A stretch of 42,776 bases of DNA from assembly GCA_022402405.1 (NCBI GenBank), contig JAKRSG010000046.1, positions 1-42,776 on the forward strand, given 5' to 3'. The position numbers were made by a program, and so were the translations under genes. The notes beneath the pieces are model-generated. The model was not told where the DNA came from. It worked only from the letters and a program-made list of their open reading frames with translations, and did no database searches. This document shows, in pieces, positions 5,172-25,672 of the stretch. How positions within the stretch are numbered: the first letter of the stretch is position 1; each line of letters opens with the position of its first letter. Origin of the DNA: Bacteroidia bacterium (GTDB lineage: Bacteria; Bacteroidota; Bacteroidia; UKL13-3).

Positions 5172-6175
5172 TAGTTTATATTTTTAGTTTTAATTACAAT
5201 ATCTTTAATAATTTCATCTAACTCCAAAGCAGAGCTTTCGATATGTGGCAAAAATGCTAATTTTTCGTCTAAAGTAGCATGGTCGTCTGATAGTAAGTCT
5301 ATTATTCCTAGAATTCTAGCTAAAGGTGCTCTCACCACGTGAGATTGAATCCAAGCAATCTCTCTAAACTTCTCATTTTGGGCCTCAATTGCTCGCATAT
5401 GTTCCATTCTAATGGTAATGTCGTTAGCTAAAATTATCTCTGCTTTCCGCCCATTAAAATCAATAATGTTTCCAATAATCTCCGAATAAATAGTTTCTCC
5501 AGTTTTCTTTAAATGCTTAAATACTTTTGGTTCATAATTTTTACCTGTGGATTTTATGGTATTAATAACCTCTTCTAACATCGCCAATTCATCTTCTGGT
5601 CGAATGTCTTTTATAGTCATATTCAAAAACTCATCATAACTATATCCGTAATGATTAATTGCAGCCTCGTTTACATCCAAAAAATGAAGTGTTTCTAAAT
5701 CATAAACCCACATAGGTTGCGGACTTAAATGAAATAAGTCGGAGTATTTTTGTTGTGATATTTTTAAATCTAGTATAAAGTTATTTCGCTCAATATTATA
5801 AAGTATACTTTTATATAATGTAGTAGAATTTAACTCCTCTTTCAACAAATAATCAGAAACCCCCATACTTAAGGTTTGTATAGCAAACGAAGCCTCTACA
5901 GAACCTGTAATTACTATTATTGGTATATTTTCAGAAACCTCTAAAATCCCCTCAATCAATTCCTCCATCCTTTTATCAGGTAAACTTAAATCTAGTAAAA
6001 TCACTTTTATTTCATCACGATATTCGTTTATTGTTTTAACCGCATCCTTGAATGTTCTGGCATTTATAAGGCCAGAAGAATTGACATAATTCTCCAAATA
6101 TTTTTTTATTAGAAAAAAGTCAACCTGACTATCTTCCACCACTAAAATTTTTGTGTTTGTAAGATCTTTTATCAT
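5171..6175 (-). CDS. Response-regulator receiver - PAS - HisKA (DHp) protein with no HATPase domain
   Basis: REC domain (KILVVEDS...ILLDLSLPD...IIVITG), PAS domain (WVYDLETLHFLDVNEAAINHYGY), and H-box SHVVRAPLARILGIIDLL. The protein ends about 60 aa later with no N/G1/G2 boxes. I chose the ATG at 6175; the track start at 6211 is a TTG. Confidence 0.75.
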   Translation of the reverse strand: MIKDLTNTKILVVEDSQVDFFLIKKYLENYVNSSGLINARTFKDAVKTINEYRDEIKVILLDLSLPDKRMEELIEGILEVSENIPIIVITGSVEASFAIQTLSMGVSDYLLKEELNSTTLYKSILYNIERNNFILDLKISQQKYSDLFHLSPQPMWVYDLETLHFLDVNEAAINHYGYSYDEFLNMTIKDIRPEDELAMLEEVINTIKSTGKNYEPKVFKHLKKTGETIYSEIIGNIIDFNGRKAEIILANDITIRMEHMRAIEAQNEKFREIAWIQSHVVRAPLARILGIIDLLSDDHATLDEKLAFLPHIESSALELDEIIKDIVIKTKNIN

Positions 6176-22873: not shown

Positions 22874-23170
22874 TTACTTAACTTTATCTGCCACAATACA
22901 ACTCCAAGCATACGGCTTATCGTTAAAAAGAGCTTTGGTTCCTTGCCATGTTGATTTAAATAATTCGGAAAATCTATACTTGTTTAAATACTCCTCACTC
23001 TCCCAATAACTGTAGGTTAAATACACATTTTCTAAATGTGCATCTCTTAACAATATTAATCCTTCACATCCTTCAAATGAAGCAATTTTATGCTTTACAC
23101 TCTCAAATAATTCAAGAAACTCTGACACTTTTGAAGGCTCAAAGCTCATTCTAACTATTCTATTAATCAT
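22874..23170 (-). CDS. Antibiotic-biosynthesis-monooxygenase (ABM, ferredoxin-like) domain protein
   Basis: 98 aa. The pattern V...F...F......I..F.GC..L.LL.D......Y.TYS.WESEE.L..YR is typical of the ABM family. Confidence 0.65.
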   Translation of the reverse strand: MINRIVRMSFEPSKVSEFLELFESVKHKIASFEGCEGLILLRDAHLENVYLTYSYWESEEYLNKYRFSELFKSTWQGTKALFNDKPYAWSCIVADKVK

Positions 23171-23174
23171 TTTT

Positions 23175-23182
23175 CAAAAGTA
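23175..23182 (-). promoter_or_regulatory. Candidate -7 box TACTTTTG 5 nt upstream of the ABM ATG
   Basis: The reverse complement of caaaagta matches TAnnTTTG. Its G is 5 nt from the A of the ATG at 23170, the same geometry as at 6360-6372. Confidence 0.4.
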
Positions 23183-23220
23183 AACTTTCTTTTAAAAAAC
23201 ACAGCTTTCAGGTAAAAGTT

Positions 23221-23372
23221 AAGAGATTCTTCGCTATCGCTCAGAAAGACGTTCTAATCTTATGTTTTACTGCAAGAATCTTTGAGGCAGCTTCGCTGCC
23301 TCAAAGATTCTTGCCCCTTAGTTTTGATTTATGGTCCTTCTGAGCGCAACGCAGTGGAGCGAAGAATCTCTT
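23221..23372. repeat. 152-bp nested imperfect palindrome (three coaxial stems), GC-richer than its surroundings; REP/MITE-like element or structured RNA
   Basis: Outer stem: 23221-23235 aagagattcttcgct pairs with 23358-23372 agcgaagaatctctt (15/15). Middle stem: 23238-23250 pairs with 23334-23346 (12/13). Central stem: 23272-23291 gcaagaatctttgaggcagc pairs with 23295-23314 (20/20, 3-nt loop). Confidence 0.8.
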
Positions 23373-23475
23373 TTGTCGAAATTAGATTTTGTAATTTTTA
23401 AAAACTTTACTTTAAATTTTAAAACACTAAAAAACAATAACTTAACACTTATTAAGGTATTTTGTATTGCATAGT

Positions 23476-23496
23476 ACTAAACAATATTTAGTTTTG
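23476..23496 (+). promoter_or_regulatory. Candidate padR promoter -7 box (TAGTTTTG, 23489-23496) overlapped by a short inverted repeat ACTAAA-n5-TTTAGT (23476-23492)
   Basis: Exact TAnnTTTG match 33 nt upstream of the padR ATG. The 6-bp inverted repeat overlaps it and is a possible autoregulatory operator. Confidence 0.4.
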
Positions 23497-23528: not shown

Positions 23529-23864
23529 ATGGATTTAGAAAACAGAAAAGCGCAATTAAAAAAAGGCATTTTAGAATATTGTATTTTATCAATCATTAGC
23601 AGAGGCGAAGCTTATGCTAGTGATATTATAGAGGAAATGAAAGAGGCCAAATTATTAGTGGTTGAGGGTACATTATATCCTTTATTGAGCAGACTAAAAA
23701 ACGAAGGACTTCTGCAATATAATTGGGTAGAAAGCAAAAGTGGTCCACCCAGAAAATATTACCAATTAAGCGATGAAGGTGCAAAATTTTTAAAGGAGCT
23801 TGCCATAACGTGGCAAGAATTAGTACTAGCAGTAAATTTAATAACCAACGAAAACAATAAATAA
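23529..23864 (+). CDS. PadR-family transcriptional regulator
   Basis: LEYCILSIISRGEAYASDIIEEM....VVEGTLYPLLSRLKNEGLL...W.....GPPRKYYQLSDEG winged-helix signature. Confidence 0.9.
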   Translation: MDLENRKAQLKKGILEYCILSIISRGEAYASDIIEEMKEAKLLVVEGTLYPLLSRLKNEGLLQYNWVESKSGPPRKYYQLSDEGAKFLKELAITWQELVLAVNLITNENNK

Positions 23865-23869
23865 AACAC

Positions 23870-25672
23870 ATGGAAAAAGTATTTCAAATTCACCTAGCGG
23901 GATTGCTCTTTACCATTGAAGAGGAAGCTTATCATCAGTTAAAATCTTACTTAGATAAATTGCATACGCATTTTTCTAATAATGCTGATATTGTTCAGGA
24001 TATTGAGTCGCGCATGGCAGAATTGTTGCAAAGGCGATTAGATGCATCAAAAATTACCATTCAGAAAAAAGATGTATTGGAGGTCATAGAAATATTAGGT
24101 CATATCAACCAAATGGATGAACACGGCGAGCCACAAACTAGTTCTGAACCAAAACCAAGTTATCAAAAACCTACCCATCATAGATTGCGCCGTAATCCAG
24201 ATGATCAAAATTTAGGTGGAGTATGCTCTGGAATTGCCTCCTTCTTTGATGTTGACCCAGTATTAATTCGCGTAATTTTTGTATTACTTCTCGTTGCTTA
24301 TGGCTCAGGCATTCTGTTTTATTTAATCCTTTGGGTAGTATTACCAGAAGCCAAAGGAGACGACTTAGTATACATGAGAGAGCAAAAGGTTAATAAACTT
24401 AAGAAGCTTTTTCGCGATTCTGAAAATAGAGTTATTGGTGGTGTTTCGGCTGGTTTGGCCGCATATTTCGGACTAGATAGAGCCTGGATTAGATTAGCAT
24501 TTGTTATCTCAGTATTCTTATTTGGAACCGGTTTCTGGGTATATATCGTGCTATGGATTATTGTTCCAAAAGCTATTACAGCTAGTGAAAAATTATTAAT
24601 GCGTGGCGAAAGTATTGATATCAATAGTATCAAAAATGAATTCTTAAATAGCTCGGCCGGTAATAAAATGAATAGCATCGCTCAACATGGCAGTAGCATA
24701 ATCAGCAAAATAGTTAGCGGATTCTTTAAATTCGTTGCCGGTATTGCTGCTTTGGTTTTATTTACAGCCGTTATTGGCATTTCAATTGCCATGGTTGCGG
24801 TGTTCTTAAACCTGAACCAAACCCATTTTCTAAACGATTTAATTGCATTTACCATTCACCAACCTGAAACCATTTGGGCAGCAAAAATTGGGGTGCTATT
24901 AGTTTTATTAGCTCCTTTACTTGCTCTTTTAGTTGCAGTTATTAGGGTATTATTTCATTTGCCATTATTAAACAAAACGTGGTTCCTATCACTAGGCGGA
25001 TTATTTGTAATAGGTGTAGTAAGCTTAGCCTATGCCGGAATTAATTTCGGTAATCAAATTAAGTATACTGAAAGTAGGCAACAAATTATAAAAACCAGCT
25101 CTTATGATACTTTGTATTTTAACGGACAAGAAATGCCATATGATGAAATAGACAATGAAAGCAATGAAGCTGGTGAAATGGCCTTTAGAGACAAAGGAAT
25201 TTTAATGGGAACTAAAGCATTCTTTTTAGAAATAGACCAGATTAATTTCAAACAAAGTAAAACAGATAGTATTGCCATTAAAATAGTGAAGCGTGCTAAT
25301 GGAAAAAATAAACAGGACGCCAGAGAGAATATAGAAATGATTCAATACGCTCCTACTATCAACTTAAATCAAATTACCCTTCCATCCTACTTTAGCTTAG
25401 CCAAAGATCAAAAATTCTCTTGGCAAGAAGTTGAAATCACCGTTTGGGTTCCAGAGAACAAAATTATGATCATCAACCCATCGGTAAGAGAATATATGAA
25501 CGAAGAAAAACTAGAAGAGGCAGATGGCACCATGTACCAATTTCAAAAGGGTAAACTCGTTTGTATAGATTGCGCCGTAGATGAAACAGAAATATGGGAA
25601 GAAAACGAAATCGACACTAATATTAACCTCAGCATTAAAATCAACAAAGAAGGAGTGAAGATTGATATGTAG
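23870..25672 (+). CDS. Membrane protein with two PspC domains (phage-shock/envelope-stress type)
   Basis: Two PspC motifs: LGGVCSGIASFFDVDPVLIRVIFVLL and VIGGVSAGLAAYFGLDRAWIRLAFVISVF. Several TM helices and a C-terminal extracytoplasmic domain. Starts 5 nt after padR. Confidence 0.85.
   Translation: MEKVFQIHLAGLLFTIEEEAYHQLKSYLDKLHTHFSNNADIVQDIESRMAELLQRRLDASKITIQKKDVLEVIEILGHINQMDEHGEPQTSSEPKPSYQKPTHHRLRRNPDDQNLGGVCSGIASFFDVDPVLIRVIFVLLLVAYGSGILFYLILWVVLPEAKGDDLVYMREQKVNKLKKLFRDSENRVIGGVSAGLAAYFGLDRAWIRLAFVISVFLFGTGFWVYIVLWIIVPKAITASEKLLMRGESIDINSIKNEFLNSSAGNKMNSIAQHGSSIISKIVSGFFKFVAGIAALVLFTAVIGISIAMVAVFLNLNQTHFLNDLIAFTIHQPETIWAAKIGVLLVLLAPLLALLVAVIRVLFHLPLLNKTWFLSLGGLFVIGVVSLAYAGINFGNQIKYTESRQQIIKTSSYDTLYFNGQEMPYDEIDNESNEAGEMAFRDKGILMGTKAFFLEIDQINFKQSKTDSIAIKIVKRANGKNKQDARENIEMIQYAPTINLNQITLPSYFSLAKDQKFSWQEVEITVWVPENKIMIINPSVREYMNEEKLEEADGTMYQFQKGKLVCIDCAVDETEIWEENEIDTNINLSIKINKEGVKIDM

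What the first reader, a model, noticed from the sequence alone, without database searches (positions are those of the whole stretch)
23221..23372. 152-bp nested three-stem palindrome between two divergent promoters
The element has three coaxial stems: 15/15 bp outer, 12/13 bp middle and 20/20 bp central with a 3-nt loop. It is visibly GC-richer than the AT-rich spacer around it. The word AAGAATCT(C/T)T appears four times in alternating orientation across the outer and central arms.

The element lies between the candidate -7 box of the ABM gene (23175-23182, minus strand) and that of padR (23489-23496, plus strand). Neither mRNA should therefore include it.

Possible identities are a REP/MITE-like dispersed palindrome, a cruciform or protein-binding insulator between divergent promoters, or an independently transcribed structured sRNA. 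The TTCTGAGCG...GCGAAGAATCTC arm reminds me of dispersed palindromic repeats seen in other Bacteroidota genomes, but I cannot verify that here. There is only one copy in this window.
Basis: partly seen in the sequence, partly recalled or inferred. Interest (0 to 1): 0.6.

Follow-up and report, generated by a model that had tools for sequence, protein, structure and literature searches.

The report
Decayed copy of hairpin mobile element
The 152-base palindrome is a worn copy of a roughly 210-base gene-less mobile DNA element, scattered about 30 times through this Bacteroidota genome; its hairpin modules resemble the repeats recognised by the recently described Ssn single-strand DNA nucleases, so it is a DNA parasite or relic rather than an RNA gene or promoter insulator.

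Summary
The three nested stems are real and far beyond chance. They are not unique: the stretch is the core of one diverged, right-truncated copy (window 23198 to about 23390) of a ~210-bp palindromic repeat with about 30 near-full copies in this genome, all intergenic. Orthologous sites in sister genomes lack it, both here and at seven other copies, so it is an insertion. Intact copies have 20-bp terminal inverted repeats and 5-bp flank duplications, and often sit in heptamer arrays.

Each copy has two inverted hairpin modules (GTC-stem-GAGCG..AGCGAAG-stem-C) around a variable central hairpin that is nearly always perfect. That hairpin changes only by Watson-Crick double substitutions, and its 3-nt loop flips between GAA and TTC. 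This is DNA-level behaviour, not RNA behaviour.

The module recurs across phyla and brackets small GIY-YIG nuclease genes, which are homologous to an NTS-flanked gene of the published Ssn type (Chenal 2025). The published SRM search pattern misses this module class.

No partner nuclease gene is assembled in this genome.

Earlier notes of this scan report similar GIY-YIG/hairpin systems on other DNA.

Verdict: new variant of a known kind, moderate interest.

The parts
23198..23390 (+). Whole decayed copy of the ~210-bp palindromic non-autonomous element. The right boundary is uncertain and could lie anywhere from 23390 to about 23419.
   Evidence: The nhmmer profile of the family matches 23199-23390 (model positions 2-195 of 211, E 5e-45). 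The alignment with 20 other copies is. The block is absent from the orthologous ABM-padR spacer of G001, G003, G004, G005, G010 and G020.
23198..23217 (+). Degenerate left terminal inverted repeat (AACACAGCTTTCAGGTAAAA; family consensus ATCACTGCTGTCCGGGATAA).
   Evidence: Alignments. The matching right terminal repeat (consensus TTTTCCCGGACAGCAGTGAT) is missing in this copy.
23223..23250 (-). Short hairpin module. Its sense strand is the minus strand: GTCTTTCTGAGCGATAGCGAAGAATCTC (GTC, 5-nt stem, GAGCG-AT-AGCGAAG, stem', C).
   Evidence: It has the same frame as the cross-phylum module. Local-stem pair counts are (helix 2).
23272..23314 (.). Central perfect 20-bp hairpin with a 3-nt loop (TTC orientation). 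This is the hypervariable, always-paired part of the family.
   Evidence: I1. One search shows 21 of 30 copies with a perfect stem of 19 bp or more despite different sequences. Searches show 98.4% of cells paired and 13 of 21 pairs with changes on both sides.
23334..23370 (+). Long hairpin module: GTCCTTCTGAGCGCAACGCAGTGGAGCGAAGAATCTC. It contains the cross-phylum 23-mer GAGCGYAACGNAGTGRAGCGAAG at 23342-23364.
   Evidence: Exact motif match. The local stem covaries: columns 145-172 read CG in 16 copies and UA in 5.
23371..23390 (+). Right subterminal remnant (TTTTGTCGAAATTAGATTTT). Similarity to the family ends here, and the right terminal repeat is deleted or replaced.
22874..23170 (-). Flanking gene, ABM-family monooxygenase. 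The element starts only 28 bp upstream of its start codon.
   Evidence: Pfam PF03992, E 1.5e-11. ORF list.
23529..23864 (+). Flanking gene, PadR-family regulator, followed by a PspC-domain gene at 23870-25672.
   Evidence: Pfam PF03551, E 1.4e-18, and PF04024.

Best explanation
SHOWN. The palindrome is the core of one diverged, right-truncated copy of a ~210-bp gene-less palindromic mobile element that has multiplied in this uncultured Bacteroidota lineage. It was inserted into the ABM-padR spacer after the split from the sister species. The element is modular. It has 20-bp terminal inverted repeats, then a short and a long hairpin module in opposite orientation (each GTC + 5-bp stem + GAGCG...AGCGAAG + stem' + C), and between them a hypervariable but almost always perfect GC-rich hairpin.

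INFERRED. The modules are a previously unlisted class of Ssn-related motifs, meaning recognition hairpins of small single-domain GIY-YIG single-strand-DNA nucleases (the Ssn family, Chenal et al. 2025). Such a nuclease binds each module when the DNA is single-stranded and cuts a few nucleotides 5' of GTC. Each strand carries one sense module in its 3' half, so the two predicted cuts fall on either side of the central hairpin. Snap-back or template-switch repair there would explain two things: why that hairpin stays perfect while its sequence drifts, and why its loop flips. The terminal repeats and 5-bp flank duplications show that whole elements are inserted at AT|TNNNA|AT-like sites, which abound in the genome's heptamer arrays. 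This particular copy has lost one end and is most likely an inert relic. It may have reshaped the -33 region of the ABM promoter, which now lies inside it.
For: Copy number: 44 profile hits, about 30 near-full, all intergenic.

Insertion: the block is absent from the orthologous spacer in six congeners. Seven further copies (C401, C294, C27, C187, C57, C168, C28) have empty sites in G001, G005, G015 or G017.

Ends: the terminal repeats are 81.9% paired across 21 copies. The 5-nt flanks match at 4/5 or better in 17 of 23 copies, in register only, and this includes copies outside arrays (C215, C168, C187).

Structure: 90.4% of cells are paired against 37-45% with slid partners. 25 pairs have changes on both sides, reached by 0 of 500 shuffles.

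DNA-level signature: central-stem changes are GC to AU, UA or CG with virtually no G-U intermediates. The loop is GAA in 13 and TTC in 5 of 21 copies, and near-identical copy pairs (C294/C168, C28/C185) differ by the flip.

Module: it is conserved across phyla with a covarying 5-bp stem. The same whole layout, including the terminal repeat, is found in Bacteroidales MAGs.

Nuclease link: a small GIY-YIG gene is bracketed by module pairs in 4 motif-selected loci from different phyla. In the reverse test, 40-41 of 80 loci chosen only for the protein have a module within 400 nt and 17-18 have one on both sides, with 86 near hits against 23 far hits. Within the genus the only strong hits to this GIY-YIG subfamily are in G001 and G019, both element carriers. 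There the gene is embedded among module-hairpin-module elements that match the element profile at E 5.5e-10. The protein is PF01541 and 43% identical (E 7e-21) to a gene flanked on both sides by canonical NTS repeats.

Published biochemistry: the GTC before the palindrome governs cutting and the C after it governs binding, and only ssDNA is bound, not dsDNA or RNA (PMC11893778). Both positions are conserved in these modules.
Against: No GIY-YIG gene of this subfamily is assembled in the window's own genome. Its four GIY-YIG genes are of other types and have no module nearby. That genome is a 423-contig MAG, so the absence is weak evidence.

The published SRM search pattern matches none of these modules, so filing them as SRMs rests on frame, context and protein homology rather than on the published definition.

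The nuclease-module link is by association only. The gene could instead be a homing element that targets the repeats.

A GIY-YIG nuclease alone does not explain terminal inverted repeats with 5-bp duplications, which are the hallmark of DDE transposases.

The 5-bp duplication is confounded by the 7-bp periodicity of many flanks.

Assignment to CDD cd10448 could not be run. The cut-site geometry is extrapolated from Neisseria SsnA. No expression data could be obtained.
Confidence: 0.72

Rival explanations
1. It is an ordinary MITE. A DDE transposase encoded elsewhere, or now lost, recognises the 20-bp terminal inverted repeats and makes 5-bp staggered cuts. The hairpin modules and central hairpin are cargo that hitch-hikes, for example a captured REPIN-like doublet, and the GIY-YIG nuclease plays no part in moving it.
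For: The terminal inverted repeats are conserved from this genus to Bacteroidales MAGs. The 5-nt flank duplications are in register. There is a preference for AT|TNNNA|AT-like sites. Miniature derivatives keep the ends but lose the interior (G019 L038; G000 C42). The module-pair elements next to the GIY-YIG gene in G001 lack these outer repeats.
Against: No longer element with these ends exists in G000 or in the partial hits of G005 and G019. IS630-type DDE_3 is not found over its cut-off in any of the 25 genomes of the genus. This reading does not explain the perfect-but-variable central hairpin or the loop flips. MAG assemblies often drop IS copies, so the absence is weak evidence.
Confidence: 0.3
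2. It is a family of structured non-coding RNAs, either an sRNA or a cis-acting RNA such as a terminator or stabiliser. The stems are kept by selection on the RNA fold.
For: The folding energy is very strong and there are compensatory changes. In most copies the GC-rich central hairpin is followed by TTTT on one strand, which looks like an intrinsic terminator. 9 of 13 copies in tandem gene contexts are co-oriented with the genes.
Against: Rfam has no hit at gathering scores, and only sub-threshold chance-level matches appear at E up to 10. Both strands fold equally well. The central stem lacks G-U intermediates, and the loop appears in both orientations, which is a DNA inversion. Copies occur in every gene context, including between divergent genes as here. 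The window copy lacks the T-run. The 9:4 orientation split is not significant. Empty sites and flank duplications show mobility rather than a conserved gene.
Confidence: 0.06
3. It is a locus-specific regulatory device, a cruciform or protein-binding insulator that separates the divergent ABM and padR promoters.
For: It lies between two TAnnTTTG words. The element starts 28 bp from the ABM start codon, so it must overlap that promoter's upstream part.
Against: About 30 other copies lie in unrelated contexts. The spacer works without it in six congeners. This copy is truncated.
Confidence: 0.04

Closest known systems
NTS / Ssn-related motifs (SRM) with Ssn single-domain GIY-YIG ssDNA nucleases (Chenal et al., Nat Commun 2025, PMC11893778)
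   Same: Both are short hairpin repeats with GTC(A/T)(T/C) directly 5' of the palindrome and a C directly 3'. Both are dispersed in tens to hundreds of copies, mostly intergenic, often as inverted doublets, and both bracket a gene for a GIY-YIG protein of about 95 aa. The associated protein here is 43% identical to one flanked by canonical NTS repeats.
   Different: The inner stem is GAGCG...AGCGAAG, with predicted tandem G.A mismatches, instead of CCCGCG...GCGGG. A long-loop form carries a conserved 11-nt insert (TAACGNAGTGR). The published degenerate SRM pattern finds none of them. Here the modules are built into a larger element with a central hairpin, terminal inverted repeats and flank duplications. 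The paper's main text mentions no Bacteroidota, cyanobacterial or MITE-like versions.
REP / REPIN doublets with RAYT (Y1 HUH) transposases
   Same: Both are inverted pairs of short hairpin repeats around a spacer. Both are non-autonomous, persist as sequence populations, and have the putative enzyme gene bracketed by the same repeats.
   Different: The associated enzyme is GIY-YIG, not Y1 HUH. RAYT genes in this genus are flanked by other REPs, such as TTCCCTACGGGAA arrays. REPINs have no terminal inverted repeats or target duplications.
Bacterial MITEs such as Correia/NEMIS (Neisseria), ERIC/IRU and RUP
   Same: All are 100-250 bp, gene-less, palindromic and intergenic, with terminal inverted repeats, target duplication and lineage-specific bursts.
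   Different: No cognate IS was found. The duplication is 5 bp, whereas Correia elements duplicate TA (from my own knowledge). The interior holds nuclease-type hairpin modules and a self-correcting central hairpin.
Neisseria intergenic mosaic elements (NIMEs: RS elements flanked by dRS3)
   Same: These are mosaics in which NTS/dRS3-type hairpins flank variable inserts. The background on dRS3 is in PMC11893778.
   Different: NIMEs are arrays rather than a single defined ~210-bp unit with its own terminal repeats. This comparison rests on my own knowledge and was not tested here.
Small dispersed repeats and nested MITEs of heterocystous cyanobacteria (Elhai et al. 2008, Genome Res 18:1484)
   Same: The same long module occurs in Nostoc, Brasilonema, Calothrix and Microcoleus, nested inside other palindromic repeats. 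Heptamer tandem arrays are also a cyanobacterial trait.
   Different: The paper was not available, so identity with any named SDR family is unverified.

Membership tests
Ssn-related motif (SRM/NTS) repeats | A hairpin-forming inverted repeat of about 20-50 nt | tested here: met
   The local module stems pair in 87-100% of cells. The long-module pair at columns 145-172 covaries, CG in 16 copies and UA in 5. The stem covaries across phyla: ATTCT/AGAAT, ATTGC/GCAAT, ATTAC/GTAAT, ATCCT/AGGAT.
Ssn-related motif (SRM/NTS) repeats | Conserved oriented flanks: GTC directly 5' of the palindrome (needed for cutting) and C directly 3' (needed for binding) | tested here: met
   GTC...C is present in both modules of the window copy (GTCTTTCT..AGAATC on the minus strand, GTCCTTCT..AGAATC on the plus strand). 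It is also in the family consensus and in the cross-phylum set. The requirement comes from PMC11893778.
Ssn-related motif (SRM/NTS) repeats | Matches the published degenerate pattern HGTCWYN(0-2)YYVSBRHN(0-5)WNVSBRGN(0-2)RNCYNB | tested here: not met
   There are 0 hits in the element and 1 in the whole genome, against 2-11 in shuffles. There are 0 hits within 1200 nt of 80 GIY-YIG genes of this branch. Canonical NTS sequences do match my implementation of the pattern.
Ssn-related motif (SRM/NTS) repeats | The repeats flank genes of single-domain GIY-YIG proteins of the Ssn family | tested here: met
   Across phyla, 40-41 of 80 loci have a module nearby and 17-18 have one on both sides. In the genus this holds in G001 and G019. 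The protein is homologous to an NTS-flanked gene. It does not hold in the window's own genome, where no such gene is assembled.
Ssn-related motif (SRM/NTS) repeats | The associated protein belongs to CDD cd10448, and the repeat is bound and cut as ssDNA only | not testable with these tools
   No CDD search or biochemistry is available. Pfam gives PF01541 only. The nearest solved structures are the UPF0213 proteins 1ZG2 and 1YWL.
MITE (non-autonomous DDE-transposon derivative) | Terminal inverted repeats | tested here: met
   The 20-bp ends are 81.9% paired over 21 copies. The window copy itself has lost the right end.
MITE (non-autonomous DDE-transposon derivative) | Target-site duplication of fixed length | tested here: inconclusive
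   The 5-nt flanks match at 4/5 or better in 17 of 23 copies, in register only. A shift of 7 scores alike because many flanks are heptamer arrays. Copies outside arrays (C215 TCATA, C168 and C187 AAAAA) support 5 bp. The C401 empty site fits a duplication of about 4-5 nt.
MITE (non-autonomous DDE-transposon derivative) | Presence/absence polymorphism at orthologous sites | tested here: met
MITE (non-autonomous DDE-transposon derivative) | A cognate autonomous IS with the same ends | tested here: not met
   Only two stray end-like matches lie outside the short copies, and neither is next to a transposase. The partial hits in G005 and G019 are truncated or miniature copies.
REP/REPIN-RAYT system | The repeats flank a Y1 (IS200-like) RAYT gene | tested here: not met
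   RAYT genes in G000 (C18) and G001 sit in other REP arrays. Only one stray short-module-like word lies near the G000 gene.
Any Rfam RNA family | A covariance-model match at gathering score | tested here: not met
   Nothing in the window region at E up to 10 comes near a gathering score. Nothing is found in 8 loci with canonical modules.

The most novel reading that the evidence does not exclude
The element family is the non-autonomous partner of an uncharacterised, cross-phylum branch of Ssn GIY-YIG single-strand nucleases. Its recognition hairpins (GTC-stem-GAGCG..AGCGAAG-stem-C, in short and long-loop forms) escape the published motif. Two oppositely oriented modules direct one ssDNA cut on each strand, on either side of the central hairpin. 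Snap-back or template-switch synthesis then regenerates a perfect but drifting palindrome and flips its loop. That would be a nuclease-driven hairpin mobility and maintenance mechanism distinct from both DDE and HUH transposition.
Probability: 0.2. Interest if true: 0.75.

Novelty: new variant of a known kind. Interest (0 to 1): 0.5.

Why it matters
The biological role of Ssn nucleases outside Neisseria is open, and the authors say so themselves (PMC11893778, Discussion). If this reading holds, a large branch of that family, found in Bacteroidota, cyanobacteria, Chloroflexota, Planctomycetota and candidate phyla, has its own recognition hairpin that current search patterns miss. These hairpins are also assembled into defined mobile units that insert, duplicate their target and maintain a perfect internal palindrome.

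That gives three things:
- A concrete nuclease/substrate pair to test in vitro: the G001 protein with the short and long modules.
- New specificities for ssDNA tools.
- A tractable case for asking whether Ssn genes spread their repeats, as RAYTs do with REPINs, or merely live among them.

For annotation it explains the recurrent spurious small ORFs and strong 'RNA-like' hairpins in intergenic DNA of these phyla. For this locus the practical point is modest. The ABM gene's upstream promoter region was replaced by element sequence in this lineage.

Tried and rejected
- **Rfam.** I scanned the region at E up to 10 and 8 canonical loci at gathering score, and found nothing.
- **RAYT/REPIN hypothesis.** Y1_Tnp genes exist in 19 of 25 congeners, element carriers or not, and sit in other REP arrays. 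Rejected.
- **IS630/Tc1-like DDE.** I considered it because the end CACTGCTG..CC..AAAA recalled Tc1 ends. DDE_3 is not found over its cut-off in the genus and the flanks are not TA. Rejected.
- **Autonomous element with the same ends in G000.** None found. The C42 hit is a ~70-bp miniature and the C333 hit lies inside a gene.
- **G000's own four GIY-YIG genes as partners.** No modules lie within 600 nt. Three sit beside tRNA genes and one has a different hairpin.
- **Literature search by sequence strings.** It returned only primers.
- **Elhai 2008.** Not held.
- **Supplements of the Ssn paper and of the 2024 MITE census.** Not held.
- **Searches for GIY-YIG with REP/REPIN/MITE terms.** No paper links them other than the Ssn paper.
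- **Class-level co-occurrence test.** The exact long-module motif is in 0 of 150 other genomes of the class, so the sample was uninformative and I did not run the paired protein search.
- **Base-level target duplication from array-embedded empty sites (C27, C294).** Array length differs between species, so these are uninformative.

Full report
**Observation.**
- central: 23272-23291/23295-23314, 20/20, 3-nt loop
- outer: 23221-23235/23358-23372, 15/15
- middle: 23238-23250/23334-23346, 12/13

Either strand folds into the nested hairpin at -76 to -79 kcal/mol, z about -10 to -12, with no shuffle folding as well. GC is 0.38-0.42 inside against 0.20-0.28 outside. The word AAGAATCT/AGATTCTT occurs four times in alternating orientation. 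The neighbours are an ABM-family gene (22874-23170, minus strand) and a padR gene (23529-23864, plus strand) followed by a pspC-type gene.

**It is a dispersed repeat, and longer than 152 bp.**
The window's own genome is a 3.2-Mb, 423-contig MAG. A search of it found about 20 full-length matches at 68-78% identity. BLAST and a profile raised this to 44 loci, about 30 of them near-full.

Alignments with flanks show that conservation runs beyond the 152 bp. The family consensus is ~210 bp and is bounded by ATCACTGCTGTCCGGGATAA ... TTTTCCCGGACAGCAGTGAT.

The window copy matches the profile over 23199-23390. Its left end is degenerate (AACACAGCTTTCAGGTAAAA), and similarity stops before the right terminal repeat. 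All copies are intergenic and lie in convergent, tandem and divergent gene contexts without obvious bias.

**It is an insertion.**
The ABM and padR genes are adjacent in most congeners. In G001 the two matches are 16 bp apart where the window has about 218 bp. G003, G004, G005, G010 and G020 also lack the block.

I joined the flanks of eight other intact copies into pseudo-empty sites and searched five relatives. The joints were spanned, or the flanks were collinear without the element, as follows:
- C401, C294, C27 and C187 in G001
- C294 in G005, G015 and G017
- C57 in G005 and G017
- C168 and C28 in G005

At C401 (flanks 86% identical) an A-run is duplicated by about 4-5 nt.

The 5-nt flanks of 23 intact copies match at 4/5 or better in 17 cases. 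Shifting by 1-6 nt abolishes this, while a shift of 7 does not, because many copies sit in heptamer arrays such as ATTACGG/ATTACGA. Copies outside arrays still show TCATA/TCATA or AAAAA/AAAAA. The genome has 368 tandem arrays of period 7, so the arrays are a general feature that supplies AT|TNNNA|AT-like targets.

Distribution is very patchy. Within the genus, G000 and G001 have many copies, G005 and G019 have fragments or miniatures, and 20 others have none. The exact long-module 23-mer occurs 27 times in G000 and in none of 150 other genomes of the class.

**Anatomy and how the stems evolve.**
Each copy reads, in order:
- terminal repeat
- short module (antisense)
- spacer
- central GC-rich hairpin
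- spacer
- long module (sense)
- terminal repeat

I tested a structure with local module hairpins, the central hairpin and terminal pairing on 21 copies. 90.4% of cells are paired, against 37-45% when partners are slid. 25 pairs have changes on both sides, and no shuffle reaches any measure.

The central stem is 98.4% paired. 13 of its 21 pairs show double changes (GC to AU, UA or CG) with essentially no G-U intermediates. 21 of 30 copies keep a perfect stem of 19 bp or more although the sequences differ.

The 3-nt loop is GAA in 13 copies and its reverse complement TTC in 5. Near-identical copies (C294/C168, C28/C185) differ by that flip.

Strict Watson-Crick replacement together with loop inversion is what DNA-level palindrome processing gives, through template switching or hairpin-primed repair, or through inversion between the arms. 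Selection on an RNA fold would not give this pattern.

In the long module the stem positions covary locally: ATCCT..AGGAT or ATTCT..AGAAT, with columns 145-172 reading CG in 16 copies and UA in 5. The corresponding position of the short module stays T. The unit under constraint is therefore each module's own small hairpin.

**The module is ancient and cross-phylum.**
An exact scan for GAGCGYAACGNAGTGRAGCGAAG returned more than 115 stretches. They came from Cyanobacteria, Bacteroidales, Planctomycetota, Acidobacteriota, Dehalococcoidia, Patescibacteria, Proteobacteria and archaeal MAGs.

The common form is GTCAT + 5-nt stem + GAGCG...AGCGAAG + complementary stem + C, and the stem covaries. Modules usually come as inverted pairs around a spacer. 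Bacteroidales MAGs show the whole layout seen here, including the variable perfect hairpin and ends such as TATCGGACAATAGTGAT. Rfam has nothing.

**The enzyme lead.**
RAYT transposases were rejected, because they sit in other REP arrays. IS630-type DDE is not found in the genus. No longer element shares the ends.

I clustered ORFs from 80 motif-selected loci. One recurrent neighbour emerged: a GIY-YIG protein of about 95 aa, 9-233 nt from the module and bracketed by module pairs on both sides, in a Saprospiraceae MAG, a Dehalococcoidia MAG, a Nostoc genome and a Bacteroidetes MAG.

I then ran the reverse test on 80 loci chosen only for encoding this protein. 40-41 have a module-type motif within 400 nt and 17-18 have one on both sides. 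There are 86 hits within 400 nt against 23 in the outer zone, which is twice as large.

Within the genus, the only strong matches to the subfamily (over 120 bits) are in G001 and G019, both element carriers. There the gene is embedded among module-hairpin-module elements of a sister type (GTCATTTCGAGCGAAGCGAGAAAC with GTCATTCCGACCGNAGGGAGGAA), which the element profile detects at E 5.5e-10.

The window's own genome has no such gene assembled. Its four GIY-YIG genes are of other types.

**Comparison with what is known.**
After I had found the association, the scan's earlier notes pointed me to Chenal et al. 2025 (PMC11893778), and I read the paper. Its main points are these:
- Ssn proteins are single-domain GIY-YIG nucleases of about 94 aa.
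- They bind a hairpin repeat (NTS, CGTCATTCCCGCGMAVGCGGGAATCYRG) as ssDNA only and cut a few nucleotides upstream.
- The GTC before the palindrome matters most for cutting, and the C after it matters most for binding.
- 71% of homologues have such a motif nearby, and 42% have one on both sides.
- The authors liken NTS-ssnA-NTS to IS elements and to REP/RAYT systems.

The modules here share the GTC-hairpin-C frame and the gene association. A module-associated protein is 43% identical (E 7e-21) to a Sphingorhabdus gene flanked by canonical NTS repeats at -98 and +110.

The published degenerate SRM pattern, however, matches none of these modules, whether in the element, in the genome above shuffle level, or near any of the 80 GIY-YIG genes. 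The paper's main text mentions no Bacteroidota, cyanobacteria or MITE-like composites. I therefore file the modules as a new class of a known kind of repeat, and the ~210-bp unit as a composite that also has MITE features.

**Mechanism, shown and inferred.**
Shown:
- multiplication of the element
- insertion
- terminal repeats and flank duplication
- maintenance of the local and central hairpins at the DNA level
- association of the module with Ssn-type genes

Inferred:
- An Ssn-type nuclease recognises each module in ssDNA.
- The two predicted cuts, one per strand, bracket the central hairpin.
- Repair there regenerates a perfect palindrome and flips the loop.

Unresolved: what makes the terminal-repeat-bounded unit insert with a 5-bp duplication. 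This is the main support for the plain-MITE rival.

The window copy has lost one end and is most likely inert. It begins 28 bp upstream of the ABM start codon, so it now supplies that promoter's upstream region.

**Limits.**
- A CDD assignment was not possible.
- The genomes are fragmented MAGs. The closest named relatives are uncultured Bacteroidota, one of them deposited as 'Chitinophaga pinensis' GE-03apr19-111.

Noticed in passing
G000 genome-wide; e.g. L035 (G000:C28:18727-21574) around locus positions 1450-1800. None of note in the window itself.: The genome has 368 tandem arrays of period 7, a sharp peak over other periods. Units include AGTCCAT, CTATGGT, GTTGGTC, GAATTAC, AATTTCG and ATTCATA. 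This resembles the STRR heptamer repeats of cyanobacteria. The element inserts preferentially into the ATTNNNN-type arrays.
   Followed up: partly
G000:C18:5700-6800 and L183 (G001:C354:1-1300): Y1 (RAYT/IS200-like) genes are bracketed by their own REP arrays, for example CCGAAATATATTCCCTACGGGAAATTTGATTT repeated more than 10 times in G001, and GCCCTGAAAGGG-type hairpins in G000. A classical REP-RAYT system therefore coexists with the element family.
   Followed up: partly
G000:C6:10283-10537, C65:3222-3446, C352:3786-4031: Three small GIY-YIG genes of another subtype are wedged directly beside or between tRNA genes. This is the arrangement that earlier notes of this scan describe in other genomes.
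   Followed up: no
L278 (G000:C178:4507-7740), about locus positions 1270-1480; also G000:C185:1008-1100 and C32:19937-19970: A second hairpin module, CCGGTGGTTGAGCGNAGYCGAAACCACCGG, has 6 copies in the genome. Three are directly downstream of the C178 GIY-YIG gene and three are within 300 nt of copies of the main element.
   Followed up: partly
L273 (G001:C445:577-2684): The GIY-YIG cassette is flanked by a direct repeat of about 90 bp. The repeat includes a module, the sequence cacccttcaaaagaaaaag..aaaaacccATGAAAA, and thus the start of the downstream host gene. It looks like a long target duplication or a recombination footprint of the cassette's arrival.
   Followed up: no
G000:C215:2261-3171 versus G001:C223 and G001:C10: Both flanks of this one element copy are 99% identical between G000 and G001, whereas other shared regions are about 75-87% identical. 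The G001 contigs break inside the element. This points to recent transfer between the two lineages or to cross-binning of one population.
   Followed up: no
L038 (G019:C32), locus 1455-1550; G000:C42:3387-3460: Miniature derivatives of 70-90 bp keep both terminal repeats but only one module or none. In G019 the interior reads GAGATTCTGAGCGTCAGCGAAGAATCT.
   Followed up: partly
window 23031-23084 (minus strand): A weak Rfam hit to RT-6 RNA (RF03027, 22.8 bits against a gathering score of 46.7, E 0.014) lies inside the ABM coding region. It is probably chance.
   Followed up: no
G000:C18 about 6075-6090; flanks of copies on C77 and C214: The word GGTTCAGCC, which an earlier first-reader note (e1-3677180) flags as over-represented in this window, also turns up in unrelated contigs that I read.
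   Followed up: no
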